The notes below the pieces were generated by a model that saw nothing but the letters and a program-made list of their open reading frames with translations, made no database searches and was not told the origin of the DNA. A stretch of 64,000 nt of DNA from Candidatus Nomurabacteria bacterium GW2011_GWD2_36_14. Lineage in GTDB: Bacteria; Patescibacteriota; Minisyncoccia; Phycocordibacterales; UBA9973. A program made the translations under genes and the position numbers. Below, piece after piece: positions 2,031-63,627 of the stretch (within the stretch, counting starts at the first letter, position 1; every line of letters starts with the position of its first letter). The stretch spans positions 315,200-379,199 of the forward strand of contig LBRL01000001.1 of assembly GCA_000991405.1 (NCBI GenBank). Reading direction: 5' to 3'.

Positions 2031-2153
2031 ATTTTCTATTCACTTCATTAGTATATTTATTTTATCTAAAATCTTATTTAATCGAAAAATTAGTACGGGG
2101 CAAGGTTCTTTATTTCTGATTCCATAGTATTATTATACCAATTCTAACCCCTA

Positions 2154-2906
2154 TTATCCATTTGGGTACATTTTAATTGCTAGTTTCTTACATTCTTCGA
2201 GAATTCCCTCTTCTTCTGGCAAGACAAGCGGAACTTCACGGTGAAATTCGGATACAGTGCCACTCACAAAATCTTTTAGTAGTTCTATTTGAACTTCGTG
2301 TTCTACAAGCAGGACTCGAGCTTGTAAGCTCTCGGCTGTATCGTCAGGTAATATTGGTATTTGTTTTCTTTTTAATACTACACCTTCGTCAAACTTTGCT
2401 GTTACTCGGTGTGCCGTCGCCTCAGTCCAGAAATCTCTCTCTACTTTTTGTACAAAGGAAAGTCTAGCTTGATGCACTCGCATACCATACATACCGACTC
2501 CTCCGAAGTCTAGGTGTCCGGCTTGCCCGCCTGAATTACTTGTATTTTGGCGGGTGTCGAGTGGCCCTGGATGCTGGTTGATAATCATTCCCTCAAATTC
2601 ATTGATTACATTCTCGGGAGTCATTACCATCCAGCCATATTGACCAATGAAGTCCACATTTCTCTTTCTGCATTCCTCTATAATTTTCTCTCCAAATTTT
2701 TCCCGAGTCTCAAAACTTTTCGGATTTATAACTAAAATATCCTCTTCTTTTATTCCAAGTCTGCTGGCCCTCTCTATGCCTCCCGCATTTTCCTTACTCG
2801 CTATGACTAAGGCGGGTATGACACTCGAAAGTACCCCACTATGGCAAGCTTTGATAATAGCTTCCATTGTAGTTCCTCCTCCTGAAATAAGTAATGCAAT
2901 CCTCAT
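2154..2906 (-). CDS. purN: Phosphoribosylglycinamide formyltransferase (PurN-like, with an insertion)
   Basis: N-terminal LISGGGT nucleotide-binding motif, then HPGPL...TAHRV..FDEG.V pattern of the formyl_trans_N family. It is the last gene of the pur cluster. Confidence 0.7.
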   Translation of the reverse strand: MRIALLISGGGTTMEAIIKACHSGVLSSVIPALVIASKENAGGIERASRLGIKEEDILVINPKSFETREKFGEKIIEECRKRNVDFIGQYGWMVMTPENVINEFEGMIINQHPGPLDTRQNTSNSGGQAGHLDFGGVGMYGMRVHQARLSFVQKVERDFWTEATAHRVTAKFDEGVVLKRKQIPILPDDTAESLQARVLLVEHEVQIELLKDFVSGTVSEFHREVPLVLPEEEGILEECKKLAIKMYPNG

Positions 2907-2916
2907 ATATAAAAAA

Positions 2917-4326: not shown

Positions 4327-4402
4327 AAATATTTTTTTGTAATTTAATAATGTTATAATTCATATATAGTGTTATCTCTAACGGGATTCAATTTTCATTT
4401 CT

Positions 4403-5176
4403 TTATTTATTAAAATAATTTATTGCATTCTTAAATAAAATAAGTCCTGCACCTTCATCTGTTTTTCTTTTTTTATTTTTCTTTGTTTGCCAAAGTGGTG
4501 TTTGATGGAAGAATTGCGCACGTTCAGGATGAGGCATCATACCTAAGACTCGCCCCTGATATCCTAATATCCCTGCAATATCATGCATTGCTCCATTTGG
4601 ATTGGCTTCTAAACTTTGGAATTTGCAAATCTCCCCACTCGTATAAGTGAAAGCTATCTGCTTATTCTTTACCATTTCTTTGTATTCTTTAGAACTTATC
4701 AGGTATCTTCCCTCTCCATGAGCAATCGACAAAGAAATATCCTTTATACCAGTGAGCCAAGGACTCTTCCCTATAGATTTCAAATCTACCCAGCGGTCAA
4801 TATACTGTCCATTCTTGTTGTGAGTGAGAGCTCCCGGCAAAACACCCAGGGAAGTTAATATCTGAAATCCATTACAAATACCAATTGCTAAAGTATCCTG
4901 AGACAAGAATTCTTCTAACTCTTTCGATAAATGATTCTTAAATTTATTGGCATAAGCCTTACCACTACCTGTATCATCTCCATAAGAGAACCCTCCAGGG
5001 AAAACAAGTATCTGGTACTTAGAGAGCATTTTGGGTTCTGTAATCAAATCATTGATATGCACTATGTCAGCCTTGCCTCCGACAGATTCAAATGCAAACT
5101 TTGTTTCCTCTTCGCAGTTGAGTCCGTATCCAGACATTATTAAAATCTTTGGTTTTTTTATAGTATTTTTTTTCAT
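4403..5176 (-). CDS. purQ: Phosphoribosylformylglycinamidine synthase, glutaminase subunit
   Basis: GICNGFQIL catalytic Cys motif and the HPER motif. The gene overlaps purL by 4 nt. Confidence 0.85.
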   Translation of the reverse strand: MKKNTIKKPKILIMSGYGLNCEEETKFAFESVGGKADIVHINDLITEPKMLSKYQILVFPGGFSYGDDTGSGKAYANKFKNHLSKELEEFLSQDTLAIGICNGFQILTSLGVLPGALTHNKNGQYIDRWVDLKSIGKSPWLTGIKDISLSIAHGEGRYLISSKEYKEMVKNKQIAFTYTSGEICKFQSLEANPNGAMHDIAGILGYQGRVLGMMPHPERAQFFHQTPLWQTKKNKKRKTDEGAGLILFKNAINYFNK

Positions 5177-39584: not shown

Positions 39585-42500
39585 TTACTGTAAGTCAGCA
39601 GTTGCTGTCATAAGACTACCTCTTCCAAAGAATCCATCAGATCTAATCTTGTGTTCGGCCTGCCAAGCCTTAACCTTATTGGCCGTTCCTCTTCCAAAGA
39701 TTCCATCAGCATCTATACCAAGGAAAGCTTGAAGAATTTTGACATCATCCCCTCTTGTACCTTGTCGTAGAGTTCTATTGATCTTTGCTAAATCTTCTGC
39801 GTCAACAGTATTGTCACTTCCTGCAGAAACATCTGCACTTTTTGAAGCACCCGTACACTGGTATTTAACTATACAACCACTTGCATCTTTGACTGCTTCT
39901 GTCTGATAAGCACCACAAGATACTGGTGCAACATATGTAGGACAAGTATTTGTTGATGAAGAATTAATTGTGAAATAATTATTACTTTCGTCAGAAATAC
40001 CCTTATAGTCAGAAATTGATATTTTGAATTTTTTACTACCAATAGCAAGTATATCTTTCAATCCATCATACCCTACTATTTTATCAGTAATAAACGTGTA
40101 AATTCCAGTATTTAATACAGTATTGGCTACTTTAGAACCATCAGTATTTTTTGTAAAACCTGCAAGAGGAAAAGAAACTCCAGATTGATCAGTCAAATAC
40201 GCATAAACTCCTGTTCCTGAAATATTACAAGTAGACCACCCAACTGTAATTTGTTGTCCTGTAGTAAATGCTTCTCCTCCATTTGGAGTAGCAACAGTTA
40301 TAAATGGAGAACTATTTGAAGGACACATTACAGATTCATTAGATTTAATTGTAAATGAACTATCGGAATTATCGCCTGCAACATTTTGACCATCATAAGA
40401 GGCTTGTTGTATAATACCAATCTTGTAATATTTACCACTTTGAGGAGTACAATTTTTTATACTATAATCATCATTCTTTATTGTTACTAGTTCATATCCA
40501 TCATTTGTGGATAATAAACTGCTATTATTTAAATCACAACCCTTTGCTGTATTGCCGTTATCAAACAGACCTGACAAAGAAATTCTTATTTTTTCATTTG
40601 CATCAAGATTAGAACTCTTCCACTTTACTTCAATTTTATCTCCAACTTTATAAACCTCCCCACCATTTGGACTCAAGACTGTAATCGAAGGAGTAGTAGT
40701 TCCACATGGCAATGTTGTAAATGTTCCATCAGAAGTGTAACCTGTACCAACTGTATTTGATAATGCCCCATAGAAGTAATACTTTGTACCACAAGTTAAA
40801 CCTGTTACAGAAACATTATAAAAATCTGTTGATATAGTATAATCAGTGCCCTTAACTGGAGTTGAAGGACGAGGAGTTTTACCATAATAAATGTATCCAA
40901 TAGAAGAATTAGAAACAGGATAACCCATTAATATGACATTTGCTCCTAATACGGCAGAAGTCTGAGTAACTGACGTTGCTAATGGATTTGAGACAACGGG
41001 GACAGATGGAGTGGTTGAGGAAGCCCTAATTGAAAATGTATTATCAGATTCATCTTGAGAAACATAACCTGCCGGCCCATTAAATTTTACTAAAATTTTA
41101 TATCCATTAGATAAATTAGAATTTGACGGGATGGTTAGAGTAATAGAATCATCACCTACAACTTCTGCCCTAAAAGAACCAAAATTATAAGTATCACTAT
41201 ATGCATTTTTTAAAAAAACTGAAACAGTATCACCTACCTGTGAATCATTATTTGTCATTTTATATTTCACTGTAATTTGCTGACCAACAGTATATTGCTC
41301 TCCTCCATTTGGAGAAAGAAGTGTAATTGAGGGAGATACTGAGGCTGGAGTTGTAAAGGAAGAAGTGCTTCCACAAAATGGAGAACTTATAGATCCCTGA
41401 CCAGTAGAAAGAGACGTTGCAGCAACGCAAGCTCTATAAGAATATTTTGTATTTGGCAACAAGGTTTTAATATCAAATTGATAAGTAAAATCTCCACTCA
41501 TACTAATTGAAGAATTACTTACATTTGCCTTGCTTGAGTTTGGTAAATTAGAATACACTCCATACTCAAACCATACTGTAGCACCATTGTAATTAAAAAT
41601 TCCACCAATATTTGATTGACCATTGTTTACAAGCTTACCTCTAAATTCTCCTTCATTACTATATGGATAAGTATAAGCATAATTACTATCAACAACTCCC
41701 CCCAATGTTGTAAATGTTCCCTCTGGTGAATATCCAGTTCCTGTGGCATTTGTTGCATATCCGCGGAATTTGTATGTTGTATTGGGAGTTAAGCTAGTGG
41801 CATATACTAACGTCTGCTGACTAGCTGATTTAACACAAGTAGCACCATTTGTTTTACTTGGAGCAGAAATACTTGCACTGTAGCAAACTCCATTTTCTAA
41901 TATAGTGAGAGGATACCCATTGCTTGTTACTGTCGCACCTAGCATTGCTCTATTTTCTGTAATACTTTGAGACGTAGGATATGATACAGTTGGAACACTA
42001 GAATAAGCACAACTGACTTGCTGAGTTGCTAAGCCTTCACAACTTCCACCATTTAAAGGAGCTGGGTTTGTACAATATCTTACTTGTGTTTGACCATTAC
42101 TTGTACAACTTCCAGAATTAGTCCAATCTGTCCAACCACCGGGAACAGGAGTTACTGAGGCTGGGGTTGTAAAACTTACTGTATTGCTCCAATTGGTAGC
42201 TGTGTCATTTATAGCATAACTAATTGCTAAATATTTTGTATTTGGAGTCAATCCTGTTCTATTTTGTGAGAATGGTCCAGTAGTTTTCCCTGCATCATTT
42301 AAGCAATTACTCATAGGACCTTGTGTCTCAAGTCCATAACAAGTACCGCGAGCTATAAGTAAAGCTGGGTAGCCTAAAGATACAACGCTTGAAGATATTG
42401 TAACTCCAGTAGATGTAAAATTAGAAACAGTAGTAGTCCCTAAAGTTGGAGGTTGTGGAATATCTGCGACAGAACCCTTCAGGCTTATTTTCAATGAAGC

Positions 42501-42620
42501 AATCTCCCTCTGTAGATTTTGTATTTTTAGTAAAGTGTCACTCAACACAGATGCATGCACTTGCCCGATCCCTACAGAAAGGAATCCGAAAATGAACAGC
42601 CCAACCAGTAACTTTTTCAT
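39585..42620 (-). CDS. Large secreted surface protein with FN3-like repeats, SPNGGE-motif domains and a C-terminal peptidoglycan-binding (PG_binding_1-like) domain
   Basis: Signal peptide MKKLLVGLFIFGFLSVGIGQVHA. There are repeated TxYxF/Y...G.GYS..G.FTT blocks and three (L/V)SPNGGE...W modules. The C-terminal end has DDVKILQAFLGIDADGIFGRGTANKVKAWQ. Confidence 0.55.
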   Translation of the reverse strand: MKKLLVGLFIFGFLSVGIGQVHASVLSDTLLKIQNLQREIASLKISLKGSVADIPQPPTLGTTTVSNFTSTGVTISSSVVSLGYPALLIARGTCYGLETQGPMSNCLNDAGKTTGPFSQNRTGLTPNTKYLAISYAINDTATNWSNTVSFTTPASVTPVPGGWTDWTNSGSCTSNGQTQVRYCTNPAPLNGGSCEGLATQQVSCAYSSVPTVSYPTSQSITENRAMLGATVTSNGYPLTILENGVCYSASISAPSKTNGATCVKSASQQTLVYATSLTPNTTYKFRGYATNATGTGYSPEGTFTTLGGVVDSNYAYTYPYSNEGEFRGKLVNNGQSNIGGIFNYNGATVWFEYGVYSNLPNSSKANVSNSSISMSGDFTYQFDIKTLLPNTKYSYRACVAATSLSTGQGSISSPFCGSTSSFTTPASVSPSITLLSPNGGEQYTVGQQITVKYKMTNNDSQVGDTVSVFLKNAYSDTYNFGSFRAEVVGDDSITLTIPSNSNLSNGYKILVKFNGPAGYVSQDESDNTFSIRASSTTPSVPVVSNPLATSVTQTSAVLGANVILMGYPVSNSSIGYIYYGKTPRPSTPVKGTDYTISTDFYNVSVTGLTCGTKYYFYGALSNTVGTGYTSDGTFTTLPCGTTTPSITVLSPNGGEVYKVGDKIEVKWKSSNLDANEKIRISLSGLFDNGNTAKGCDLNNSSLLSTNDGYELVTIKNDDYSIKNCTPQSGKYYKIGIIQQASYDGQNVAGDNSDSSFTIKSNESVMCPSNSSPFITVATPNGGEAFTTGQQITVGWSTCNISGTGVYAYLTDQSGVSFPLAGFTKNTDGSKVANTVLNTGIYTFITDKIVGYDGLKDILAIGSKKFKISISDYKGISDESNNYFTINSSSTNTCPTYVAPVSCGAYQTEAVKDASGCIVKYQCTGASKSADVSAGSDNTVDAEDLAKINRTLRQGTRGDDVKILQAFLGIDADGIFGRGTANKVKAWQAEHKIRSDGFFGRGSLMTATADLQ

Positions 42621-43042: not shown

Positions 43043-43414
43043 TTAGTCCTGTTTTAATTTTTTAATAATAACTGATAATAATTTTTCAACTTCAATGACC
43101 AATATTAATGCTCTGTTTACATTAATTTTTGGATACATTTCATTGCATAAAATTAATTGTGTTTCTAATTCAGCAGAAGATCCATATGCAATAATGAGAA
43201 ATCGTACAAAATCTCTTGTTCCTCTTTTATGTCCCTCTGCAATATTACTCGGAATAGAGATAGCACTTCTTTTCATTTGGGAATTAAGACTGTACATTTC
43301 TTCATGAGGTAACTTTTTAGAAATATCATATATTTCTTTTGCTAATTCCATGGCTTTTTGCCAAACTATAAGTTCTTTAAATGAAGTAAGCATAAAAAAT
43401 AAATTTATTTTCAC
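43043..43414 (-). CDS. Four-helix-bundle protein (23S rRNA intervening-sequence protein family, TIGR02436-like), inserted between ssb and rpsR
   Basis: WQKA.ELAKEIY.....P.EE.YSL.SQM.RSAISIPSNIAEG..R....DF.RFL.IA.GS..ELETQL. GTG at 43414 and ATG at 43393 are alternative starts. Confidence 0.75.
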   Translation of the reverse strand: MKINLFFMLTSFKELIVWQKAMELAKEIYDISKKLPHEEMYSLNSQMKRSAISIPSNIAEGHKRGTRDFVRFLIIAYGSSAELETQLILCNEMYPKINVNRALILVIEVEKLLSVIIKKLKQD

Positions 43415-44712: not shown

Positions 44713-44793
44713 TGTCCACTCCCACACCTATATTTTTATTGCAGGTATTTAAACCTGCGTTGAAAACTATAAAAATATAGGTGTGGGAGTCCA
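44713..44793. repeat. 20-bp perfect inverted repeat (actcccacacctatattttt / aaaaatataggtgtgggagt) enclosing a small hairpin gcaggtatttaaacctgc
   Basis: Visible in the sequence. It lies between the end of the giant fibre gene and the rpsF start. Confidence 0.6.
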
Positions 44794-44869: not shown

Positions 44870-47800
44870 CTATTCTTCTGTATTTGATAGAGCAACAGGT
44901 GTTTCTGGTGCTACGGTTGGAGACACTTCTACGGCTTCTGGCTCTGGTACTACTACTGGCTCTGGAGCGACAGGCTCGCTTGAAGTGGGAGGAGTAGTGT
45001 CCTCTGTAGTAGTATCCTCTACTTCAGTATCAGTAGTAACTGTCGTATCAGGAGTAACCACTGGATCAGGTGTTGGTTCTGGGTCTGGAATTGTTTGAGG
45101 TTCTGGGATTTGAGTATGGGTGTTCTTAAATTCTTGAATCATTATTCGAAGTTGATCCTCATTTAAACATTCATTATCACTAGTACAAAATTCTTTCGTT
45201 TCTACTCTGTCGCTCTTCATAATTTTCGCAAAAATAATTTCAATTCCATTTGTTGCACTTGCTAACCAACCTTTCAAATTAGATATAAAAGAAGTATTGA
45301 TATCAATATTTTCTATGCTTGTAATCTTCAAATTCATTTCCTTGATAGCTTCTATGGTATAAGGGATTAGGTTGGTATAGGAGATGGATTTAAGATTTAG
45401 CCCTGTAATAGGATCAACTTTCGGATCAGTGAAGACCAAGCTTGGGAAGATTTGCTCCATCTCTTGAGCAATGAAGCCGATGTGCCGAGCATCCGTATCT
45501 GACTCAGAATTCCAATTGTAATTTACTGGAGTTAAGTAAGTGAGCTTTTCGAGGGTAGACTTACCATTCATATCGGGAATTGTTTTAAGAATAAATTCTA
45601 TGTCTTCTAGTGTAGTAATATTCTTCTTTAAGTTTATATCAGAAGAACAGACCAACGCTGTCGTCAGAGGGCTTATATCGCAATACCCCGTCGAACTAGT
45701 AAAGCGAGCAACCGTCCCCACCACCGAAGCCCCTCCAACATAGAGTACATTCCCTGTTCCTATCGTAGCCGTATTGCTCCCATTCCCCACCGCATTGTAC
45801 CCTATCACGATTTCATTCTGATTATTATCTGCACCTGCTTTAGTATCTCTACCGATATATACTCCATAATCGGAAGTAGTGTTGGCGGTTGTGCCGTCGG
45901 CAATGTATCTACCTGACCTATAACCTAGTGCAGTATTAGAACTTCCTGTTGTATTTAAGTTGAGAGAGCCATATCCATCAGCAGTATTAGAATCTCCTGT
46001 CGTGTTAGAATAAAGGGATTCAATTCCATTTGCCGTATTGTTACTTCCTGTAGTATTGGAATAAAGGGAACGTTCTCCATTTGAGGTATTGTAGTTTCCT
46101 GTAGTATTGGAATATAGTGAAGCATATCCATTTGCAGTGTTATAAAATCCTGTGGTATTTGAGTAAAGGGAAGAATGTCCATAAGCAGTGTTGTAATATC
46201 CTGTGGTGTTAGTTGTTAGAGAATATGCTCCATTTGCAGTGTTGTAAATTCCTGTGGTATTAGCTAAAAAAGAATTTAACCCATTTGCAGTATTTTGATA
46301 CCCCGTAGTATTATATCTTCCTGCCCCCACCCCTATAAATGTATTCCCTGAAGCAGTATTTGCTCTCATTTCAATACGAGCTGTACCATCGGAAGATTTA
46401 AGATTGACAAGAGGAGTGGAGACAGCAGTGAGTGACTTGATAGAGATGACTATTGTTCCGTCGAAGTCTGTTGTAGGAGTGATGGTAAGTGAAGCAGTAG
46501 AAGTTGTAGTTGGACCCCATGCTCCTGTAGCTGTTAGACTTGAAGCACTCTGTCCTCCAAATCCGATTGTGAATGAACCTGCTGTTCTACCTGTAACAGT
46601 GTAAGCTATTTGGTATTTGGTAGCATTGACTGCAACTTTATCATGCGAAAGTACAGAGGTGTTACCTACTGTATGAGTCCAGCCTGTAGCAAAGTCCCCT
46701 GTCCAGTCTGTAGAAGTCCATCCTGTATCTAGTAGAAATTCTGCTGAGTAAGTAGGCAAATCATTGACTGCTAATCCCTGAATGTCGAGCTTCCCTGTGG
46801 GGGTGGTGGTGCCGATGCCGACGTTGCCAAGGTTATTTATCCTTAAATTTGTAGCCCCATTACTATTGAAGTTATAAGTCATGTAGCCATCTGAATCCTG
46901 ACCGTTAAAAGTAGTGGTGACATCCGTAACTTCAATTTGTTGATAGGTATTATTTTCAAATCCGGGACGAGTTATTCTCATGTTTCCGATAACATCCAAT
47001 TTTCCTAAGGGACTCGTCGTCCCAATCCCGACATTGCCAGAATAATCAATTCTCATTCTTTCGGTCGATACTGTATTATAATTTCCTGTGCCAAAAGATA
47101 ATGATACTCGAGGAGACGCTGGGTATCCGCTTGCAGAATCATCATTTATAGCTTTAATAAAACCAACACTATGAGCACCTATTCCTGTTGAATCTGATGT
47201 ATTAAAATCAATCTGTCCTAATATATCATTATGTATCCAAGAAGAACCACTACGAGAATCTTTAATAGTTAATACTGGGATAGAACCTTCTAAGTGGAAA
47301 AGTGATGCTGGATTCGTCGTCCCAATACCGACAGAGCCAGATCCATTTATTCTCATTCTTTCAACTATTCCTGTTCCATTTAGATAGTTACTGAAAGACA
47401 AGTAACTTGTCCCTCCGGTTGATTCTCTTATTCCCGCTATTTGGGAACCAACTGTCTCATCAGTAGAACTCGTAAAATGAATTATTTCTCCTGCTCCATC
47501 TGTGGCAGAATCAGAATCTAGAATTAAAAGTTTTTGTGGAGTTCCTAACGTGTTTTGAACATGTAATTTTGATCCAGGTGCCGTTGTCCCAATACCGACG
47601 GAGCCATTCATGTCTATTCTTACCTTTTCATTATATCCACCAGTTGCATTATTTGTTGAAAAACTTATATAACCACCACTTCCTGTCCAACCTGTGCCAT
47701 CACTACTATCTAAACCAAAATTAAGACCACCATTGGTGCTTGGTGCTCTATATGATTTATAATGAGAAACACCAATATCTGTAAAATAACTTGCGGAACT

Positions 47801-50263
47801 ACCTTGAATACGTAATACATCAGTATCATCTGAAATATCACCGAAAATATGTAATTTTTGTTGAGGCGTCGTCGTCCCAATCCCTACCTTCCCATCATTG
47901 AGTATCGTCATCGCTTCAGTTGCTCCATTGTTCCCTACTAGGAAATGCATATCGGCTCCTGTGGCTCCAACACCGGAGGTGGTTTGAAGAGTTAGGTCTG
48001 AAGTAGTAGCAGAACCTCCGAGAATTAGAGGAGTTGTGATGTTGGTTGTAAATACAGGACTCTCTAGGAATGCAAATGTCTTTCTTGCTCCTCCTGTTGT
48101 AATTGTTCCATAGTATGCATCAGTTAGAAACTCTACTGCTCCTGCTTCTGGAGTTGTAAGTAATGTCCCTGAAGTGAATTTTAGTGGAGCAGTTCCTGCT
48201 GTGGCTGTTCCTGCTTTCAAATGCAAGGCTGCTGTAGGAGATGATGTTCCAATCCCGAGGTTTCCGACAAAGTAATTATTGCCTGCACCGAGAACGTTAA
48301 GATTTTGGGCAATGGTTGTGGAAGCGTTGATGGTTAAGGTTTGAAGAGAGGGTGTGGAATTAAACATTCCATAAAGCAAAGCTCCTGCTTTATCACCAGC
48401 AGTATTTGCTCGGTCTTGATTGTCAACATAGAAAGAGTTAGAACCAAGTTCATATGCACCTGCAAACATTCCAAACATTACATTACTATTTCCAAATAGA
48501 TTATATCCTGCTCTATATCCTACAGCTGTGTTATATGAATATGGAGTAGAGCCATTATAGCCAGTTTCTGCACCAATAAGAGTATTTTGTATAAAGACAC
48601 CGGTACCACTATAACCAGCACCATCCCCAATTGCTGTGTTGTTGCTTCCTGTGGTATTGGTGCAGAGAGCACAATCCCCAATTGCTGTGTTGGAGCTTCC
48701 TGTGGTGTTGGAGTAGAGAGACTTACCCCCATTCGCTGTGTTGTAATATCCTGTGGTGTTGGAGTAGAGAGAATTATAACCATTTGCTGTGTTTCTGTAT
48801 CCTGTTGTGTTGGAGTAGAGAGAATGATATCCTACTGCAGTGTTGGCATCAGCTGCGTTAGTTGAAGTTCCAGAGCCTGAAGTTCCTGCTTGATAACCAA
48901 GAAAAGTGTTATATTGAGCTCCTGTCACAATATTGAGTCCTGCATCTTGGCCTACTTTAACATTGAAGTCTGTATTATCTTGAGATAATGGTAAATTATT
49001 TATTGCTGATGTTGTAATATTATACGTACCAAGATTTAGATTTGCATTTGCTCCAGTGTATGGGACATACGAACCAAGTGAGCTTGCTGTTGCATAATAA
49101 CTTCCATGTTGTCCGTCTAGTAAATCGGCGTTTAAGTTTGTAACAAGGCCTGTGTTGGAAGTGGTGAAAGTATTAGCACCTAGAGCTATGTTACCTCCCA
49201 TAGTAAATCCTGCTACTGTGCCTGTGAAGGTAGGACTAGTAAACATTGTGGCTTTGCTTTCGTTGGTTACATTTCCTAGCCCGACGTCAGTTGCTGTGAC
49301 AGTACTCCATGCTGGGACTGCGCCGTTGGTACCTGTGCCTGTCATACTTAAGAAGTTCTTGGTTGTTGTTGTATTGGGAGCAAGTAAGGTAGACGTATCT
49401 GTATCGGACTGATATGGGAGGGAGCCTAAGAGAGTGGTGGAATTGCCACCTGTCAGATTATTGGCCTTGGTGATAGTTCCGACAACGGAAGCATTGAGGT
49501 TTGGAATTGTGACAACACCACTGCCAAAAGTTACAGGCCTGTTGGTAGTAGTATTGATAGACAGTGTCCCGCTTGCATTGGTTCCGTCAATCAGAGGATT
49601 AGTACCAGAGAGGTTGATAGTGTTGCCAGTTATAGTTGTGGTCCCTGTAAATGTCGGGCTGTTTAAAGTTCCACTTTCGGTAATATCATTTGAGTTATTG
49701 GAAATATTTTTATTAACAGAATCATAAATGCGATCAACTTGAAGAGAATTGAAAGAAGCATTGTTGGAGTTAGACCGCTCTAGATTCTGTAGGCGAACAA
49801 TAATACTCGGATCAGTCTGGTTTATAAAAATCGTAGTAGGTCGCTCAATGATACGCTCAACAACTTTAGTTGGAGTTAGTATTTGAGTTGGCAATAATTT
49901 GGTATTGGCTTCTACTTTGTCTTTCGTTTCTATTTTATTTTTCGCTTCTACTTTTTTATTTATTTTTAATACTTTAGGTTGAGTGGCTACAACAGTAGAA
50001 ACTTTTGGTTTAGAATCAGATAAATTAATAAATTCTTTTACTTTATTCCCTATTTGATCTATGAATTCTTTGTATTTATCAAAGGTGGGAGATGTTAATT
50101 GTCTGAATGAGTAGGGAGTATTTAATTCTTGTGTATTTATCTCTGTGTTTGTCTGCGTATCAGACACAGCAAAAGCATTGGTATAAAAACCGAAAAATAA
50201 TACCAAATATAACATCAACAATAGTTTAACTAAGTAAATTTTTGATGACCTAAAATTATTCAT
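44870..50263 (-). CDS. Giant (1797-aa) secreted fibre-like protein with Hep_Hag/YadA-head-like 14-aa repeats, G(N/S)VGIGTT.P..L(H/D)V repeats, a C-terminal peptidase-S74 intramolecular-chaperone-like domain, and a Pro/Thr/Glu-rich tail
   Basis: Signal peptide. Repeats such as NTANGYNSLYSNTTGYY occur about 12 times, and GNVGIGTTTPTGKLDIQG occurs 6 times. Near the C-terminus, SDINLKKNITTLEDIEFILKTIP...YNW.....HIGFIAQEMEQIFPSLV matches the S74 chaperone signature. Confidence 0.6.
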   Translation of the reverse strand: MNNFRSSKIYLVKLLLMLYLVLFFGFYTNAFAVSDTQTNTEINTQELNTPYSFRQLTSPTFDKYKEFIDQIGNKVKEFINLSDSKPKVSTVVATQPKVLKINKKVEAKNKIETKDKVEANTKLLPTQILTPTKVVERIIERPTTIFINQTDPSIIVRLQNLERSNSNNASFNSLQVDRIYDSVNKNISNNSNDITESGTLNSPTFTGTTTITGNTINLSGTNPLIDGTNASGTLSINTTTNRPVTFGSGVVTIPNLNASVVGTITKANNLTGGNSTTLLGSLPYQSDTDTSTLLAPNTTTTKNFLSMTGTGTNGAVPAWSTVTATDVGLGNVTNESKATMFTSPTFTGTVAGFTMGGNIALGANTFTTSNTGLVTNLNADLLDGQHGSYYATASSLGSYVPYTGANANLNLGTYNITTSAINNLPLSQDNTDFNVKVGQDAGLNIVTGAQYNTFLGYQAGTSGSGTSTNAADANTAVGYHSLYSNTTGYRNTANGYNSLYSNTTGYYNTANGGKSLYSNTTGSSNTAIGDCALCTNTTGSNNTAIGDGAGYSGTGVFIQNTLIGAETGYNGSTPYSYNTAVGYRAGYNLFGNSNVMFGMFAGAYELGSNSFYVDNQDRANTAGDKAGALLYGMFNSTPSLQTLTINASTTIAQNLNVLGAGNNYFVGNLGIGTSSPTAALHLKAGTATAGTAPLKFTSGTLLTTPEAGAVEFLTDAYYGTITTGGARKTFAFLESPVFTTNITTPLILGGSATTSDLTLQTTSGVGATGADMHFLVGNNGATEAMTILNDGKVGIGTTTPQQKLHIFGDISDDTDVLRIQGSSASYFTDIGVSHYKSYRAPSTNGGLNFGLDSSDGTGWTGSGGYISFSTNNATGGYNEKVRIDMNGSVGIGTTAPGSKLHVQNTLGTPQKLLILDSDSATDGAGEIIHFTSSTDETVGSQIAGIRESTGGTSYLSFSNYLNGTGIVERMRINGSGSVGIGTTNPASLFHLEGSIPVLTIKDSRSGSSWIHNDILGQIDFNTSDSTGIGAHSVGFIKAINDDSASGYPASPRVSLSFGTGNYNTVSTERMRIDYSGNVGIGTTSPLGKLDVIGNMRITRPGFENNTYQQIEVTDVTTTFNGQDSDGYMTYNFNSNGATNLRINNLGNVGIGTTTPTGKLDIQGLAVNDLPTYSAEFLLDTGWTSTDWTGDFATGWTHTVGNTSVLSHDKVAVNATKYQIAYTVTGRTAGSFTIGFGGQSASSLTATGAWGPTTTSTASLTITPTTDFDGTIVISIKSLTAVSTPLVNLKSSDGTARIEMRANTASGNTFIGVGAGRYNTTGYQNTANGLNSFLANTTGIYNTANGAYSLTTNTTGYYNTAYGHSSLYSNTTGFYNTANGYASLYSNTTGNYNTSNGERSLYSNTTGSNNTANGIESLYSNTTGDSNTADGYGSLNLNTTGSSNTALGYRSGRYIADGTTANTTSDYGVYIGRDTKAGADNNQNEIVIGYNAVGNGSNTATIGTGNVLYVGGASVVGTVARFTSSTGYCDISPLTTALVCSSDINLKKNITTLEDIEFILKTIPDMNGKSTLEKLTYLTPVNYNWNSESDTDARHIGFIAQEMEQIFPSLVFTDPKVDPITGLNLKSISYTNLIPYTIEAIKEMNLKITSIENIDINTSFISNLKGWLASATNGIEIIFAKIMKSDRVETKEFCTSDNECLNEDQLRIMIQEFKNTHTQIPEPQTIPDPEPTPDPVVTPDTTVTTDTEVEDTTTEDTTPPTSSEPVAPEPVVVPEPEAVEVSPTVAPETPVALSNTEE

Positions 50264-60024: not shown

Positions 60025-63000
60025 CTATTTTACCAAATTTACAACAAATACTAAACCATCAATTTTTATTTCCCTAAATGCTTCAGTAGAAGCATCGGGC
60101 GATCCAATTTCATTGGATTTAGCCTCACCAGAATTATCCTTAAATTGTAAGTCTTTTGCACCGACAGCTTTCAGAAGCTCGTTTTTCCATTTGTTTATGA
60201 GTTCTTGTCCATCTACAGAAGTTTCAATTTCAAGAGCTATTATATCGTTTGGATTAAGTCCTGCTTTCTTTCTCATATCCTGAATAGCACGGACAAGCTC
60301 ACGGTAGTTCCCTTCTTGTTTTAACTCTTCTGTAATATTAGTATCTAGTTCAACTTTTAATTCTTCGCCTTTTATAAATTCTATTTTTTTAATATTTAAT
60401 TCGTCTTTTAAAATTTCAATATACTCATTACCTAATTTATAATCTACTTGAATATTATTTGATTCATTATTTAATAAATATGTAACTAACAATTTATTGA
60501 GTGGCTGACGAACAGGAATATTATTCTTTTGACGTTGTTGTAATCCAAGAGTTACAATTTCTCGTGTTGTTTCCATATTTATACGAACTTCTGAATGCCA
60601 AAATTCTCTTTTTGATTCTGGCCATTCTACAAGATGCACACTTTCTTTATCCTCTTCATTCTTTAATTTCTGCCAAATATCTTCAGAAGCAAACGGTGCA
60701 AATGGAGCCATAAGTGTCACCAATGTTTTTAATACATAATACAATGTTTGTTTAGCCTCAACATCCCCATCCTTAAGTCTTTCACGGCTTCGACGAACAT
60801 ACCAAGTAGATAAGTCATCCATAAAGTCGCGAATTGCTCGAACGGGTTCTAGAAGTTTATAATTTTCCATATTTTTAGTAATCGTATCTGTAAGCTCTGA
60901 CAGACGAGCAATAATCCACTTGTCCAAAGTGTTTCCTGACTCAATTTTAGTAGTTGAACTACTAAAATTTTTCTCTAGGCTTTTATCTCGATAAAGCTCG
61001 TAAAAAGCTAAAACGTTATATAGCAAATTAAAAACTTTACTATGAAGTTCCGCTACTGTCTTCTCATCAAAACTTTTAGCTTCGCCAGGTTGATTGACTC
61101 CATACATCCAAAGACGAAGGGTATCTACTCCGTATTTATGCATCATCTCCCAAGGGTCTACAATGTTGCCAAGACTCTTACTCATCTTCTTTCCATTGGC
61201 ATCAAGAAGAAGCCCCAGACAAATCACATTCTTGTATGCCTTGCCCTTACCCATAAGTACACCCACAGCATGTAGTGTATAGAACCATCCACGAGTCTGA
61301 TCGAGTGCTTCTGATATAAAATCAGCAGGATATAAAATCTGTTGTTCTTTATTCCCTGCCCCGTTGGAAGTACTCTTTCCTTCGGGGTCAAATGGATAAT
61401 GGTCTTGTGAGAATGGCATTGTACCTGAGTCCAACCAGACATCCAGAACTTCTTTCTCTCTTTTTAAATTTCCTCCGCAACTACATACCAAGCTTATCTC
61501 ATCTATAAAAGGCTTATGTAGATCAAGCTCATAATTCTCATTATGAGGAAGAGCTACAAAGTTCAATTCTCTTATCTCAGCATTTCTCAAGTATGGAGGA
61601 AAGTTTTCGTCAGTCGGTAATGTCTCGTAAGAGAAGCCTTGCACCACATGACACAGTGCACTAGTCTCCCCAGCATGACCTATGAGAAGAATATTCTTAC
61701 CAGAGTATTGGCTATCTATTTCATAAATCATTTTCCCTACTCGATTAATAACTTGCGAATAACTCTCTCCGTTTGGCATCGCTTCAAATGGATGCTCCTT
61801 ATACTGATTGCAATAAAATTCTTCGAAAGCTTCTCGCGACTTTCCTTGATAATCCGAACTTACATCCCATTCTTTCTCAAGATCGTTATAAATAACTTTA
61901 TCCAGTGGATAGCCAATCTGCTCACAAAGAATTTTTGTTGTTTCTCTAGCTCTCTCTAGAGGGGATGCTATGATGACATCAATTTTCTCTTTAAAATTTT
62001 TAGAACTTTCTATTACTTGCTCTACCCCAAATTTTGTAAGTTTGCAATTATTAGCTTCTTCATCATTCATTACAGTCTCGCTAACATTACATTCTGCCTG
62101 TCCATGACGCATGACCCAGTACTTGTTCCCTGACTTTTTAACTTTTGACTTTAAACTTTCTAAACTACCTACAACTTCCCTATTATTACATTCCGCACAA
62201 GTCCAAATAGGTAAAGGTGTACCCCAATAACGCTCACGAGAGATAGCCCAATCCTTTATGTCTTTCAACCATTCACCGAAACGCCCTTCTTTAATATATG
62301 AAGGCTCCCAATTTATACTTTTATTTTCTTCTATCAACTGATTTTTAATTTTCGGATCTGACATCTTGATATACCAAGAATCACGAGCATAGTATATAAG
62401 TGCCGTCTTACAACGCCAGCAGTGTGGGTATGAGTGCTCATACTTTTCTTTCTTAAACAGAAGTCCTCGGTGTGCTAAATCTTTTATAATATCTACAGCC
62501 ACCTCCTCGTCGCGAACAAATCGCCCTTCAAGAAAGTCTGTACCTGCTAAATACTTTCCATCAAGTCCTACCATGTGATGCTTCGGTAAGCCTACTTCAT
62601 TACCCAAAGCAAAGTCATCTTGCCCATACATGACAGCCGTATGCACAACTCCTGTACCATCTTCTGTAGTTACAAAATCCGCCGAGTAAACCTTGAATGC
62701 TTTTTCAAGCTTGGGCTTCTCAGTATCTGAAATAGTATTTGAAAGATATGGATATAGAGGTTCGTATTCTAAGCGTGTAAGTATAATGTGTGGTATAGTC
62801 TCCCATGTTGAAAAATTATCCTGTTTATACTCAGAAAAAATTTTATTAGCTAATTCTTCTGCTAAAATATAAAATTCATTTCCAACTTTAACTTTAATAT
62901 ATTCAATATCTTTACCTATCGCTAGTGCTACGTTTCCAGGAAGAGTCCAAGGTGTCGTTGTCCAAGCAAGTATATAAGTATTATCCTGTCCTTTCACTTT

Positions 63001-63627
63001 AAATTTCGCATATACAGACAAATCTTTCACATCCATATACCCTTGAGCAAGTTCATGCGAGGAAAGAGTCGTACCACAACGAGGACACCAAGGCACAACC
63101 TTGTAGTCTTTATAAATCAATCCTTGTTTATCTGTTTCTTTTATAACATTCCAAACGGACTCAATATAATCATTGTGATAAGTCACGTAGGCATTCTTCT
63201 GGTCTACCCAGTAACCCATACGTTCAGTGAATTTCTCCCAGAGATCAACATACTCCCAGACACTTTCTTTGCATTCTTTATTGAACTTTGCAATTCCGTA
63301 TTCTTCAATAGCTTTCTTGGAAGTTAGTCCCAACTTCTTCTCAACTTGAAGTTCAACAGGAAGTCCATGAGTATCCCAGCCACCCTTACGACGCACATGA
63401 TATCCTCGCATAGTTTTATAACGAGGAATCACATCTTTGAAAGCACGAGCCTCCAAGTGGTGAATTCCCGGCTTGCCATTGGCAGTTGGAGGACCCTCGT
63501 AGAAAACATACTCACCCTTCGGAGCATCTTTCTCCAAGCTCTTTTCGAAAATTTTATTTTCTTTCCAGAATTTTAAAACTTCCTCTTCTCTTAAAGCTCC
63601 CGCTGATTTTTTGTTTTCTTCACTCAT
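60025..63627 (-). CDS. ileS: Isoleucyl-tRNA synthetase carrying an inserted histidine-phosphatase (PGAM-type) domain
   Basis: HIGH as PGIHHL and KMSKS as KMSKSLGN. The editing domain and Zn motifs are present. About 190 aa (RHGQ...SPLERARET...GHAGE) are inserted between ...PIWTCAECNN and ...LHKPFIDEI. A second repeat insert lies at 61358-61389. Confidence 0.9.
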   Translation of the reverse strand: MSEENKKSAGALREEEVLKFWKENKIFEKSLEKDAPKGEYVFYEGPPTANGKPGIHHLEARAFKDVIPRYKTMRGYHVRRKGGWDTHGLPVELQVEKKLGLTSKKAIEEYGIAKFNKECKESVWEYVDLWEKFTERMGYWVDQKNAYVTYHNDYIESVWNVIKETDKQGLIYKDYKVVPWCPRCGTTLSSHELAQGYMDVKDLSVYAKFKVKGQDNTYILAWTTTPWTLPGNVALAIGKDIEYIKVKVGNEFYILAEELANKIFSEYKQDNFSTWETIPHIILTRLEYEPLYPYLSNTISDTEKPKLEKAFKVYSADFVTTEDGTGVVHTAVMYGQDDFALGNEVGLPKHHMVGLDGKYLAGTDFLEGRFVRDEEVAVDIIKDLAHRGLLFKKEKYEHSYPHCWRCKTALIYYARDSWYIKMSDPKIKNQLIEENKSINWEPSYIKEGRFGEWLKDIKDWAISRERYWGTPLPIWTCAECNNREVVGSLESLKSKVKKSGNKYWVMRHGQAECNVSETVMNDEEANNCKLTKFGVEQVIESSKNFKEKIDVIIASPLERARETTKILCEQIGYPLDKVIYNDLEKEWDVSSDYQGKSREAFEEFYCNQYKEHPFEAMPNGESYSQVINRVGKMIYEIDSQYSGKNILLIGHAGETSALCHVVQGFSYETLPTDENFPPYLRNAEIRELNFVALPHNENYELDLHKPFIDEISLVCSCGGNLKREKEVLDVWLDSGTMPFSQDHYPFDPEGKSTSNGAGNKEQQILYPADFISEALDQTRGWFYTLHAVGVLMGKGKAYKNVICLGLLLDANGKKMSKSLGNIVDPWEMMHKYGVDTLRLWMYGVNQPGEAKSFDEKTVAELHSKVFNLLYNVLAFYELYRDKSLEKNFSSSTTKIESGNTLDKWIIARLSELTDTITKNMENYKLLEPVRAIRDFMDDLSTWYVRRSRERLKDGDVEAKQTLYYVLKTLVTLMAPFAPFASEDIWQKLKNEEDKESVHLVEWPESKREFWHSEVRINMETTREIVTLGLQQRQKNNIPVRQPLNKLLVTYLLNNESNNIQVDYKLGNEYIEILKDELNIKKIEFIKGEELKVELDTNITEELKQEGNYRELVRAIQDMRKKAGLNPNDIIALEIETSVDGQELINKWKNELLKAVGAKDLQFKDNSGEAKSNEIGSPDASTEAFREIKIDGLVFVVNLVK
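61358..61389. repeat. 32-nt GC-rich repeat GCCCCGTTGGAAGTACTCTTTCCTTCGGGGTC inside ileS, in frame
   Basis: Near-identical copy of the glyQS repeat. It encodes DPEGKSTSNGAG. Confidence 0.65.

What the first reader, a model, noticed from the sequence alone, without database searches (positions are those of the whole stretch)
44870..50263. 1797-aa secreted fibre with YadA/Hep_Hag-like repeats and a C-terminal phage-tail-fibre-type S74 intramolecular chaperone domain, in a non-phage context
The protein has a signal peptide. It carries about 12 copies of a 14-aa NTA(N/I)G..SLYSNTTG.. repeat, typical of YadA-head/Hep_Hag beta-rolls, and six G(N/S)VGIGTT.P..L(H/D)V repeats. Near the C-terminus lies SD(I)NLK(K)NI..L.....IL..I......Y.W.......HIGFIAQE.E..FP..V. 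This is the signature of the auto-cleaving trimerisation chaperone of phage endosialidases and tail fibres. A Pro/Thr/Glu-rich tail follows. Its neighbours are r-protein genes and tatD/metG, not phage genes. It is therefore more likely a cellular adhesion fibre than a prophage remnant. That fits an episymbiotic lifestyle, where such fibres might mediate host attachment. Tandem DNA repeats at ~45955-46330 and ~48590-48850 make it a likely hot-spot for length and phase variation.
Basis: partly seen in the sequence, partly recalled or inferred. Interest (0 to 1): 0.55.

Follow-up and report, generated by a model that had tools for sequence, protein, structure and literature searches.

The report
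Cell-encoded phage-like surface fibre of Nomurabacteria
This is a chromosomal gene of an ultrasmall groundwater bacterium (Candidatus Nomurabacteria) for a 1797-residue exported fibre built from phage-tail-fibre modules with a self-cleaving S74 chaperone at its end; it most resembles the prey-recognition fibres of the predator Bdellovibrio, which makes it a testable candidate for how such bacteria grip other cells.

Summary
ORF 44870-50263(-) encodes 1797 aa with a Sec-type signal peptide. The only Pfam hit is Peptidase_S74 (aa 1541-1610, 48 bits against a cut-off of 22), with an invariant Ser1541/Lys1546 SDxxxK dyad. There are six GxVGIGTTxP motifs. The NTAxG..SLYSNTTG.. repeat has a 17-aa period, not 14. 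It lies in two arrays: 11 strict copies, about 16 with degenerate ones.

A YadA/Hep_Hag relationship is not shown at profile level. The six-motif region is homologous to the trimeric beta-helix of the Bdellovibrio MAT fibre Bd2133 (PDB 8OND). The 64-kb window holds only housekeeping genes. The identical protein sits in the same locus in at least 24 groundwater contigs. Four other relatives examined (three distinct loci) also lie beside core operons.

The closest relatives are almost all Patescibacteria, followed by predatory bacteria. Viral contigs share only the S74 core. Patescibacterial versions carry an undescribed extension after S74: an invariant Cys pair, a helix and an acidic Pro/Thr tail (3010 cluster representatives).

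Phase variation is not supported. Repeat units are 61-82% identical and there are no simple-sequence tracts. Strain variants differ only in a loop at aa 922-946.

Verdict: a new variant of a known kind, the cell-encoded S74 fibre. Host attachment is inferred, not shown.

The parts
50168..50263 (-). Signal peptide, aa 1-32 (n-region R5/K8/K13, hydrophobic core aa 14-27, TNAFA|VS site)
   Evidence: Read from the sequence. Relatives have homologous N-termini: P0004/P0313 ...FFSTYTNVFA|VS and P0008 ...AYTNIFA|IA. No signal-peptide predictor was available.
49679..50167 (-). Basic N-terminal base, aa 33-195 (pI 9.25). It holds 3 x 6-aa KVEAKN units and the conserved block VVERIIERPTT..INQxDP..RLQNLE..FNSLQVDRIYDSVN. 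Proposed as the cell-proximal stalk or anchor.
   Evidence: This is the only basic region of the protein. An 18-nt tandem repeat lies at 49908-49954. The block is shared with P0004/P0313 (E 6e-29), P0075 (2e-14) and P0006 (9e-7), which have different shafts. It does not resemble the Bdellovibrio MAT N-terminal domain.
48854..49678 (-). Thr/Gly/Asn-rich proximal shaft, aa 196-470, with SPTFTGT (x2) and NADLLDGQHGSYY motifs
   Evidence: PHROG virion-structural and tail-fibre families cover aa ~404-570 (phrog_6002). Sequence.
48284..48853 (-). First 17-aa repeat array and its cap, aa 471-660 (units at 474, 491, 508, 525, 542, then degenerate). Includes the Cys531/Cys534 pair.
   Evidence: DNA tandem repeat at 48626-48845, period 51.
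46784..48283 (-). Six beta-helix modules of about 100 aa, aa 661-1160, each opened by a GxVGIGTTxPxxKL(H/D)V 'capping-loop' motif
   Evidence: phmmer against the PDB: Bd2133 (8ond) E 2.5e-7 over aa 965-1233, plus 8oml, 8on4 and 8ojn. The motif corresponds to the MAT capping-loop consensus in PMC10769870. BLASTP to the Bdellovibrio sp. fibre L146 reaches 3e-10.
47420..47494 (-). Indel-polymorphic loop in beta-helix module 3 (aa ~922-948)
   Evidence: P0001 lacks aa 922-932 and P0296 lacks aa 922-946. Both are otherwise 100% identical to the window protein.
46376..46783 (-). Trp/Thr-rich domain of unknown fold, aa 1161-1296. A candidate ligand-binding module.
   Evidence: No family or PDB hit of its own. 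It is 72% identical in variant P0002, with clustered substitutions. The role is inferred only.
45884..46375 (-). Second 17-aa repeat array, aa 1297-1460 (8-9 units)
   Evidence: AF2 places one strand per 17 aa but with low confidence. Foldseek against BFVD finds phage and giant-virus fibre proteins at E down to 3e-8.
45644..45883 (-). Array cap with two 14-aa turns, then a neck ending in the Cys1528...Cys1539 loop. This would be the distal tip of the mature fibre.
   Evidence: pLDDT is 70-84 in the AF2 model. The ARFxxxxGxCDIxP......C(S/T)SD motif is conserved in the five closest of the 22 aligned patescibacterial relatives. A related form, FQNDTGTCTVTPNTSSLSCSSD, occurs in Bdellovibrio L146.
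45344..45643 (-). S74 intramolecular chaperone and self-cleaving protease core, aa 1541-1640. Ser1541 and Lys1546; predicted cleavage between Ser1540 and Ser1541.
   Evidence: Pfam PF13884 at 48 bits. Profile against the PDB: 6f45 1.9e-14, 8jov 4e-11, MyRF 7dc3 3.7e-9, T5 fibre 8hqz 7e-4. The AF2 core has pLDDT above 90. The top Foldseek match is the MyRF ICA domain, probability 1.0.
45104..45343 (-). Extension after S74, aa 1641-1720: helices, a WLxxAxNGI..F block, a hairpin with invariant Cys1693/Cys1699, then a helix
   Evidence: Alignments A2 and A5. It has no PDB or Pfam counterpart. There are 3010 cluster representatives at E<=1e-3. Of 84 representatives, 74 follow an S74 core.
44873..45103 (-). 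Acidic Pro/Thr/Glu-rich low-complexity tail, aa 1721-1797 (pI 4.05). No transmembrane segment or sortase motif.
   Evidence: Relatives carry comparable tails, median 86 aa after the Cys module.
44719..44790 (-). Hairpin with a 22-bp stem, 80 nt downstream of the stop codon. Possibly a terminator or insulator before rpsF.
   Evidence: Fold energy -62.7 kcal/mol for the 180 nt folded, z = -7.9. The arms occur only here in the window. No Rfam family reaches its threshold.

Best explanation
The gene encodes a chromosomal surface fibre of a Candidatus Nomurabacteria cell. It is not a phage part.

Proposed mechanism:
1. The precursor is exported by Sec and the signal peptide is removed after Ala32.
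2. Three chains are brought into register by the C-terminal S74 chaperone. The chaperone templates folding of the neck, the beta-roll arrays and the six trimeric beta-helix modules.
3. The Ser1541/Lys1546 dyad then cuts between Ser1540 and Ser1541. This releases a 257-residue, 28.6-kDa propeptide (S74 core, Cys-pair module and acidic tail). A mature fibre of about 157 kDa per chain remains.
4. The disulphide-looped C-terminal tip of the mature fibre points away from the cell. The basic N-terminal base, shared with a 2716-aa paralogue, stays at the cell envelope.
5. The fibre then binds a surface structure, most likely a glycan, on another cell. In this it resembles phage tail fibres and the Bdellovibrio MAT fibres.

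Shown here: the domain identities, the intact dyad, the cellular context, the paralogy and the taxonomic distribution.
Inferred: export, trimerisation, cleavage, orientation, retention by the base, and the ligand.
For: S74 domain and dyad:
- Pfam S74 scores above its cut-off.
- Ser, Asp, Lys and the GxIAQ..P motif are invariant in 22 relatives.
- Profile hits to solved chaperone domains: 6f45, 8jov, 7dc3, 8hqz, 3gud.
- The AF2 core has pLDDT above 90 and its best fold match is the MyRF ICA domain.

Link to Bdellovibrio fibres:
- The beta-helix modules are homologous to Bd2133 and other MAT fibres.
- Those fibres are experimentally surface-exposed, trimeric, S74-self-cleaving at SDxxxK, and one binds prey glycans (PMC10769870).
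- A Bdellovibrio sp. fibre shares the neck plus S74 at 38% identity, E 1e-20.

Cellular gene:
- The 64-kb window is entirely housekeeping.
- The identical protein lies in the same metG-tatD-[fibre]-rpsF-ssb-rpsR locus in at least 24 contigs, one of them 800,830 bp.
- Relatives lie between trmD and rpoB (two genomes), next to rpsL-rpsG-fusA, and in another housekeeping context.

Extracytoplasmic signs:
- A signal peptide and three closely spaced Cys pairs.

Mosaic repertoire:
- The base is shared with the 2716-aa paralogue found in the same MAGs.
- P0002 keeps 790 identical N-terminal residues but has exchanged distal modules.
- Several patescibacterial MAGs hold 2-3 copies.

Distribution:
- The nearest relatives of the C-terminal region in 185,579 species genomes are almost all Patescibacteria, then Bdellovibrio, Bdellovibrionales, Bacteriovorax and Micavibrio.
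Against: - No experiment or expression data exist for this protein or for any patescibacterial relative.
- The lifestyle of this Nomurabacteria lineage is unknown.
- The signal peptide was judged by eye.
- The N-terminal base is not the conserved MAT N-terminal domain. No anchoring motif was found (no transmembrane segment, LPXTG or lipobox), so retention on the cell is unexplained.
- The genome scan used motif patterns taken from close relatives, which biases the taxon list.
- The protein shows almost no sequence diversity across many samples (0-1 substitutions). That is not what an arms-race receptor-binding protein would be expected to show, although all samples may come from one aquifer population.
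- The 257-aa propeptide is much longer than in phage or Bdellovibrio versions, and its extra module has no known role.
Confidence: 0.6

Rival explanations
1. It is a general surface fibre, coat or matrix adhesin. It would attach the cell to particles, biofilm polymers or sibling cells, or act as a spacer or phage decoy, rather than recognise a specific host.
For: - The sequence is almost invariant across at least 24 contigs.
- No ligand-binding domain was identified.
- Similar fibres occur in free-living Bacteroidota and others.
Against: - The closest characterised relatives act in cell-to-cell recognition (PMC10769870).
- The C-terminal region groups with episymbiont and predator lineages.
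- The distal modules are swapped between variants and paralogues, as in receptor-binding proteins.
Confidence: 0.25
2. It is a tailspike-like depolymerase. The beta-helix or beta-roll part would cleave a host capsule or cell-wall polysaccharide, as in the S74-bearing endosialidases.
For: - S74 domains were first described on endosialidases.
- PHROG tail-spike family phrog_4636 hits aa 1350-1503.
- Fold matches include a K1 capsule-specific lyase C-terminal domain and pectate-lyase-like phage proteins.
- The paralogue P0313 is followed by two pectate-lyase-like beta-helix proteins.
Against: - No glycosidase or lyase family was detected in the protein itself.
- The structural matches rest on a low-confidence model and cover the repeat or cap region.
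Confidence: 0.08
3. It is a prophage remnant, or the fibre of a phage-derived particle (tailocin or contractile injection system) encoded elsewhere in the genome.
For: - All modules have phage counterparts.
- GenBank names the protein 'putative T4-like proximal tail fiber'.
Against: - It has a Sec-type signal peptide.
- No phage structural, integrase or lysis gene lies in the 64 kb.
- The locus is fixed in at least 24 contigs.
- The five related contexts examined, in other patescibacterial genomes, are all housekeeping too.
- Viral contigs share only the S74 core, at 42% identity or less.
Confidence: 0.04
4. It is a trimeric autotransporter adhesin of the YadA family.
For: - The repeats superficially resemble YadA-head repeats.
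- The top (non-significant) PDB fold matches are BoaA and YadA heads.
- Some relatives are labelled 'trimeric autotransporter adhesin' by JGI.
Against: - No YadA_head hit and no YadA_anchor beta-barrel.
- The C-terminus is an S74 domain plus a disordered tail.
- Patescibacteria are generally held to lack an outer membrane, which such an anchor would need (established knowledge, not tested here).
Confidence: 0.02

Closest known systems
Bdellovibrio bacteriovorus MAT (mosaic adhesive trimer) fibres, S74 subgroup (e.g. Bd3182; Caulton et al. 2024, PMC10769870; PDB 8OND, 8OML, 8ON4, 8OJN)
   Same: - Cell-encoded and preceded by a signal peptide.
- About 1000-2000 aa, with a trimeric beta-helix shaft punctuated by V-G-x-G-x-x-x-P-x-x-x-L capping loops.
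- C-terminal S74 domain with SDxxxK.
- Mosaic design: a conserved base with variable distal parts, and several paralogues per genome.
- Direct sequence homology.
   Different: - The conserved ~130-aa MAT N-terminal domain is absent. A basic low-complexity base takes its place.
- There are two long arrays of 17-aa repeats.
- The propeptide is 257 aa, carrying a Cys-pair module and an acidic Pro/Thr tail. In the Bdellovibrionales, Micavibrio and Bacteriovorax relatives measured it is 133-144 aa.
- The host organism is presumably a monoderm Patescibacterium, not a diderm predator.
- Patescibacteria are not listed in that paper's survey table of MAT proteins.
Phage tail fibres and tailspikes with a C-terminal intramolecular chaperone (K1F endosialidase, T5 L-shaped fibre pb1, S16 gp37, phi29 gp12)
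   Same: - S74 fold and Ser-Lys dyad.
- Fibre modules are shared with uncultured phage proteins.
- The expected polarity is the same, with the N-terminus proximal and the C-terminus distal.
   Different: - This protein has a Sec signal peptide.
- It lies in a chromosomal housekeeping context.
- It has the extra module and tail after S74.
- Viral relatives match only the S74 core, at 42% identity or less.
Myelin regulatory factor (MyRF) ICA domain
   Same: It is the best structural match of the predicted C-terminal domain (7dc3). In both, the S74 domain is followed by further sequence rather than ending the protein.
   Different: MyRF is a eukaryotic membrane-bound transcription factor. What follows its S74 domain is a transmembrane helix, not a Cys-pair module and an acidic tail.
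YadA-type trimeric autotransporter head (PF05658)
   Same: Short Asn/Gly-rich repeats with one strand per unit. The last two turns have a 14-aa spacing. One relative's cap (P0034) just passes the Pfam cut-off, at 25.6 against 25 bits.
   Different: The period is 17 aa. This protein has no profile hit and no membrane anchor. A profile of the array finds no solved structure.

Membership tests
Peptidase S74 / intramolecular chaperone auto-processing domain (PF13884) | Profile match above the curated cut-off | tested here: met
   48 bits against a cut-off of 22, aa 1541-1610, model positions 1-57 of 58. A family profile hits 6f45, 8jov, 7dc3, 8hqz and 3gud.
Peptidase S74 / intramolecular chaperone auto-processing domain (PF13884) | Catalytic Ser and Lys in an S-D-x-x-x-K motif at the start of the domain | tested here: met
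   S1541-D-I-N-L-K1546. Ser, Asp and Lys are invariant in 22 aligned relatives.
Peptidase S74 / intramolecular chaperone auto-processing domain (PF13884) | S74 fold | tested here: met
   The AF2 core has pLDDT above 90. The top Foldseek match is the MyRF ICA domain, probability 1.0, E 1.8e-3. The model is a monomer.
Peptidase S74 / intramolecular chaperone auto-processing domain (PF13884) | Trimerisation-dependent self-cleavage | not testable with these tools
   Needs expression of, for example, aa 1290-1797 alongside an S1541A mutant.
Bdellovibrio MAT fibre family (PMC10769870) | Signal peptide | tested here: met
   Judged from the sequence. No predictor was run.
Bdellovibrio MAT fibre family (PMC10769870) | Conserved beta-rich N-terminal domain of ~130 aa immediately after the signal peptide | tested here: not met
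   BLASTP of aa 1-470 against a full-length Bdellovibrio sp. fibre (L146) found nothing below E 2.5. phmmer with that fibre's N-terminal domain hit none of the collected proteins.
Bdellovibrio MAT fibre family (PMC10769870) | Beta-helix shaft with capping-loop motif | tested here: met
   Six motifs. Sequence homology to Bd2133 (8ond), E 2.5e-7.
Bdellovibrio MAT fibre family (PMC10769870) | S74 or alternative adhesive tip at the C-terminus | tested here: met
   S74 is present. Its neck plus S74 is 38% identical to that of the Bdellovibrio sp. fibre.
Bdellovibrio MAT fibre family (PMC10769870) | Surface exposure and a role in cell-cell recognition | not testable with these tools
   No cultured organism and no expression data.
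YadA-type trimeric autotransporter adhesin | YadA_head / Hep_Hag repeats (PF05658) | tested here: not met
   No hit on the whole protein or on either isolated array at E<=10. Fold matches to 3s6l and 1p9h rank first but are not significant (E~1) and rest on a model with pLDDT 58.
YadA-type trimeric autotransporter adhesin | C-terminal YadA_anchor beta-barrel | tested here: not met
   There is no such Pfam hit. The C-terminus is S74 plus a disordered tail.
Prophage / phage structural module | Flanking phage structural, packaging, lysis or integration genes | tested here: not met
   Only housekeeping genes in the 64 kb. The same holds in the five related contexts and in at least 24 contigs carrying the identical gene.
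Phase-variable (contingency) surface gene | Simple-sequence tract, or long near-identical tandem units, in the gene or promoter | tested here: not met
   No A/T run of 7 or more, no G/C run of 6 or more, and no (TA)5. The longest exact internal repeat is 24 nt and units are 61-82% identical. Repeat number is unchanged in five near-identical variants.

The most novel reading that the evidence does not exclude
Patescibacterial episymbionts and predatory bacteria (Bdellovibrio, Bacteriovorax, Micavibrio) use one shared, phage-derived toolkit of S74-processed fibres as their receptor-binding proteins for other cells. The patescibacterial lineage has added a dedicated module after S74: a disulphide-stapled hairpin, a helix and an acidic Pro/Thr tail, seen in more than 3000 sequence clusters and mostly but not only behind S74. 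On this reading, the module lets three Sec-exported chains find each other and fold outside a monoderm cell without cytoplasmic help.
Probability: 0.3. Interest if true: 0.75.

Novelty: new variant of a known kind. Interest (0 to 1): 0.55.

Why it matters
How ultrasmall Patescibacteria recognise and hold on to host cells is largely unknown. In the papers checked here, type IV pili are the main attachment factor studied experimentally, alongside unspecified protein adhesins. None of the papers that mention Patescibacteria or Saccharibacteria also mentions S74 or tail-fibre-like proteins.

This gene and its many relatives provide concrete candidate receptor-binding proteins with a known processing chemistry. 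The S1541A mutation, the mature tip and the exchangeable distal modules are all open to biochemistry, even without a culture.

The link to the Bdellovibrio MAT fibres suggests that lifestyles depending on gripping another bacterium converge on, or exchange, the same phage-derived parts.

The conserved module after S74 is an undescribed domain of substantial size and deserves a family definition.

Tried and rejected
- Pfam, NCBIfam and PHROGs on the whole protein: only S74 and phage fibre families were found. The rad23 hit (E 0.22) is a low-complexity artefact.
- Pfam on the two isolated repeat arrays at E<=10: no YadA_head hit.
- A profile of the second array against PDB sequences: no hit.
- AF2 on aa 1296-1545 with 23 aligned sequences: pLDDT 58, too poor to settle the fold. 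The monomer setting probably fails on a trimeric fibre.
The narrower A4 worked, but it biases hits towards close relatives.
- The third homologue search, with the N-terminal 220 aa, returned nothing, not even the identical protein. Fragment queries seem to retrieve only short proteins, as, so that search was wasted. The question was answered instead by phmmer on the proteins already collected.
- No other ORF in the window carries the Cys-pair module.
- Promoter and terminator consensus scans were at background level.
- Rfam on the intergenic hairpin gave only generic hairpin (miRNA) matches far below threshold.
- Microhomology at the aa 922 deletions was looked for. No clear flanking repeat was found.
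Full report
**The object**

ORF 44870..50263 on the minus strand encodes 1797 aa. The protein is rich in Thr, Gly, Asn and Ser (45% together). It has six Cys in three close pairs: 531/534, 1528/1539 and 1693/1699.

Its sequence is identical to a protein deposited several times from Candidatus Nomurabacteria MAGs (P0293; HAQ02461.1 and others). GenBank calls it 'putative T4-like protein proximal tail fiber'. It occurs in 34 index blocks. In the 24 contigs read (4 places listed, 20 reported as similar places), it lies in the same order: M16 peptidase, AI-2E transporter, metG, tatD, [fibre], rpsF, ssb, 23S-IVP, rpsR, then a 1011-aa surface protein. One of these contigs is 800,830 bp, and one record title shown names a groundwater metagenome.

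**Check of the observation**

- Signal peptide. The N-terminus has three basic residues, a 14-residue hydrophobic core and TNAFA|VS. I judged this from the sequence, and related fibres have homologous N-termini.
- Repeats. Tandem Repeats Finder gives a period of 51 nt (17 aa) at 45974-46291 and 48626-48845. At protein level there are 11 strict NTxxGxxSLxxNTTG units at exact 17-aa spacing, about 16 with degenerate ones, in two arrays. Across relatives, 17 aa is by far the dominant spacing (335 pairs). Only the last two turns of each array are spaced at 14 aa.
- The six GxVGIGTTxP motifs are real.
- S74 is confirmed. It is the only Pfam hit: 48 bits against a cut-off of 22, starting exactly at Ser1541.
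- The neighbours are as stated. Scans of 30 ORFs across the 64 kb found only housekeeping functions: purine synthesis, aminoacyl-tRNA synthetases, topoisomerase I, ClpB, IF-2, ParB, DprA, RelA/SpoT, RNase J and others.

**The C-terminal domain**

In an alignment of 22 relatives, Ser1541, Asp1542, Lys1546, Gly1596, Ala1599, Gln1600 and Pro1607 are invariant. A profile built from 11 relatives hits the solved chaperone domains of:

- phage S16 gp37 (6f45, 1.9e-14);
- a phage tail fibre (8jov, 4e-11);
- MyRF (7dc3, 3.7e-9);
- the T5 L-shaped fibre (8hqz, 7e-4);
- phi29 gp12 (3gud).

All these matches stop at profile position ~105. An AF2 model of aa 1501-1735 has pLDDT above 90 through the S74 core. 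Its only confident PDB fold match is the MyRF ICA domain. By analogy with endosialidase and with Bd3182 (SDxxxK, cleavage at the Ser; PMC10769870), cleavage would fall between Ser1540 and Ser1541. That would release 257 residues.

**An undescribed extension**

Downstream of the S74 core, relatives share a WLxxAxNGI..F block, an invariant Cys-x(4-12)-Cys hairpin (Cys1693/Cys1699), a helix (CITxxQLxxLL) and then a low-complexity Pro/Thr/Ser/Glu tail.

- The module has no Pfam, PDB-sequence or PDB-fold counterpart.
- A profile of the module alone finds 3010 representatives at E<=1e-3, and 814 at E<=1e-10, among 1.84 billion cluster representatives. The match always lies near the C-terminus.
- Of 84 representatives with enough upstream sequence, 74 have an S74 core before the module and 10 have other domains. 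It therefore behaves as a separate module.
- In the species-genome scan, patescibacterial proteins have 190-460 residues after the catalytic Ser. Bdellovibrionales, Micavibrio, Bacteriovorax and Elusimicrobia relatives have 104-144.
- Viral contigs match only the core, at 42% identity or less.

Its function is unknown. I suggest, as inference only, that it helps the chaperone trimer form and stay stable outside the cell.

**The shaft**

phmmer against PDB sequences returns only Bdellovibrio proteins: Bd2133 (8ond, E 2.5e-7, aa 965-1233), 8oml, 8on4 and 8ojn. These are the MAT fibres of Caulton et al. 2024. They are cell-surface trimeric fibres that come in S74 and non-S74 forms. Their V-G-x-x-x-x-P-x-x-x-L 'capping loops' correspond to the six motifs here.

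A full-length Bdellovibrio sp. fibre (L146) shares the neck plus S74 (38% identity, E 1e-20) and several beta-helix modules. It even carries a Cys-loop-Cys-SSD motif at the cleavage site. It does not share the N-terminal domain.

**The 17-aa arrays**

- There is no YadA_head hit on the protein or on either isolated array.
- There is no PDB sequence hit for an array profile.
- The AF2 model places one strand per 17 residues but has pLDDT 58.
- Its top PDB fold matches are YadA-like heads (3s6l, 1p9h), but at E~1.
- Against predicted viral structures the matches are significant: E down to 3e-8 at 30-36% identity. They go to uncultured phage fibre-like proteins, chlorovirus glycoprotein repeats and giant-virus proteins, some of which carry a 'YadA-like head' label.
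- In one relative (P0034), the 14-aa cap just passes the Pfam YadA_head cut-off.

The arrays are therefore a fibre module widely shared with viruses. A YadA-like beta-roll is plausible but unproven.

**Mosaic design and paralogy**

- The base block at aa ~60-210 recurs in P0004/P0313, P0075 and P0006, which have different shafts.
- P0313 is 2716 aa and comes from the same MAGs (US17, A2387). It also ends in S74, the Cys module and a tail. Two pectate-lyase-like beta-helix proteins follow it.
- P0002 is identical over 790 N-terminal residues. After that it has fewer beta-helix modules, a 72%-identical tip region whose array is two units shorter, and a different continuation in place of the neck and S74.
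- Several patescibacterial MAGs have 2-3 loci.
- Relatives lie beside core operons: between trmD and rpoB in two genomes, next to rpsL-rpsG-fusA, and in another housekeeping context.

**Variation**

- Five near-identical deposited variants show 0-1 substitutions.
- Two variants carry in-frame deletions that both start at aa 922, in a loop of beta-helix module 3.
- None changes the number of repeats.
- DNA units are 61-82% identical and the longest exact repeat is 24 nt. There is no homopolymer or dinucleotide tract.
- Rapid phase or length variation is therefore not supported. Module exchange over evolutionary time is.

**Distribution**

The scan of one genome per species returned 79 loci. They are overwhelmingly Patescibacteria: Nomura-, Paceibacteria, Saccharibacteria-labelled, Uhr-, Zambryski-, Adler- and Woesebacteria. 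Next come Bdellovibrio, Bdellovibrionales, Bacteriovorax and Micavibrio, plus a few others. The search patterns came from close relatives, so this enrichment is suggestive only.

In the library searched, no paper that mentions Patescibacteria or Saccharibacteria also mentions S74 or tail fibres. The MAT paper's survey table does not list Patescibacteria.

**Verdict**

The feature is real. It is a cell-encoded, Sec-exported, S74-processed fibre assembled from phage-type modules. It works like a Bdellovibrio MAT fibre but fails one defining feature of that family, the N-terminal domain. It also carries a lineage-typical extension after S74.

It is a new variant of a known kind. Host attachment is the most likely role but is inferred. 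Interest is moderate (0.55): the architecture is not surprising after the 2024 MAT work, but it gives a concrete handle on host recognition in Patescibacteria.

Noticed in passing
window 60025-63627 (-): The 1200-aa isoleucyl-tRNA-synthetase-like protein (tRNA-synt_1 plus Anticodon_1) has a histidine-phosphatase domain (His_Phos_1, 82 bits) at aa 504-671, inserted inside the synthetase core.
   Followed up: no
window 43043-43414 (-): A 23S-rRNA-intervening-sequence protein gene (PF05635, 112 bits) sits between ssb and rpsR inside the rpsF-ssb-rpsR operon. It is present in all contigs of this lineage that were inspected.
   Followed up: partly
window 44719-44790: A near-perfect hairpin with a 22-bp stem and an inner stem-loop lies between the fibre stop codon and rpsF. 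The 180 nt folded give -62.7 kcal/mol, z = -7.9. The arms are unique in the window and no Rfam family reaches its threshold.
   Followed up: partly
window 39585-42620 (-): A second large secreted protein (1011 aa) lies 2 kb downstream of the fibre gene. It has a signal peptide, weak fn3/Big hits and a C-terminal PG_binding_1 domain, and it is conserved in this position.
   Followed up: no
L152 (Bdellovibrionales MAG) 1995-4784; L161 (Bacteriovorax MAG) 386-1849: The S74 fibre proteins of these two predators appear to begin with a type IV prepilin-like motif (G|FSLVEALV..., G|FSLVEILV...). This suggests that some predator fibres may be presented on pili. It was read by eye from ORF translations.
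   Followed up: no
L168 8322-14041 (contig carrying paralogue P0313): The 2716-aa paralogous fibre of the same Nomurabacteria lineage is followed directly by two large pectate-lyase-like / NosD beta-helix proteins (1041 and 851 aa). These may be polysaccharide-degrading partners.
   Followed up: no
Representatives P0177, P0211, P0246, P0254: The Cys-pair C-terminal module also follows a different upstream domain, with the motifs DIAENYP... and (A/L)xGRVPV(K/R/N)(V/M/F)... The module is therefore mobile and not strictly an S74 appendage.
   Followed up: partly
L002 and L003 (relatives P0003, P0007): In two different patescibacterial genomes the fibre gene occupies the same slot between trmD and rpoB (rpsP-KH-trmD-[fibre]-rpoB-rpoC-dnaG-rpoD). 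In P0009's contig the fibre lies upstream of rpsL-rpsG-fusA, and P0005's syntenic contig ends at the fibre gene. These fibres repeatedly sit next to core, presumably highly expressed, operons.
   Followed up: partly
window 47420-47494 (aa 922-948): Two otherwise identical deposited variants carry in-frame deletions of 11 and 25 aa starting at the same residue. This could be a real population polymorphism in a surface loop or an assembly artefact.
   Followed up: partly
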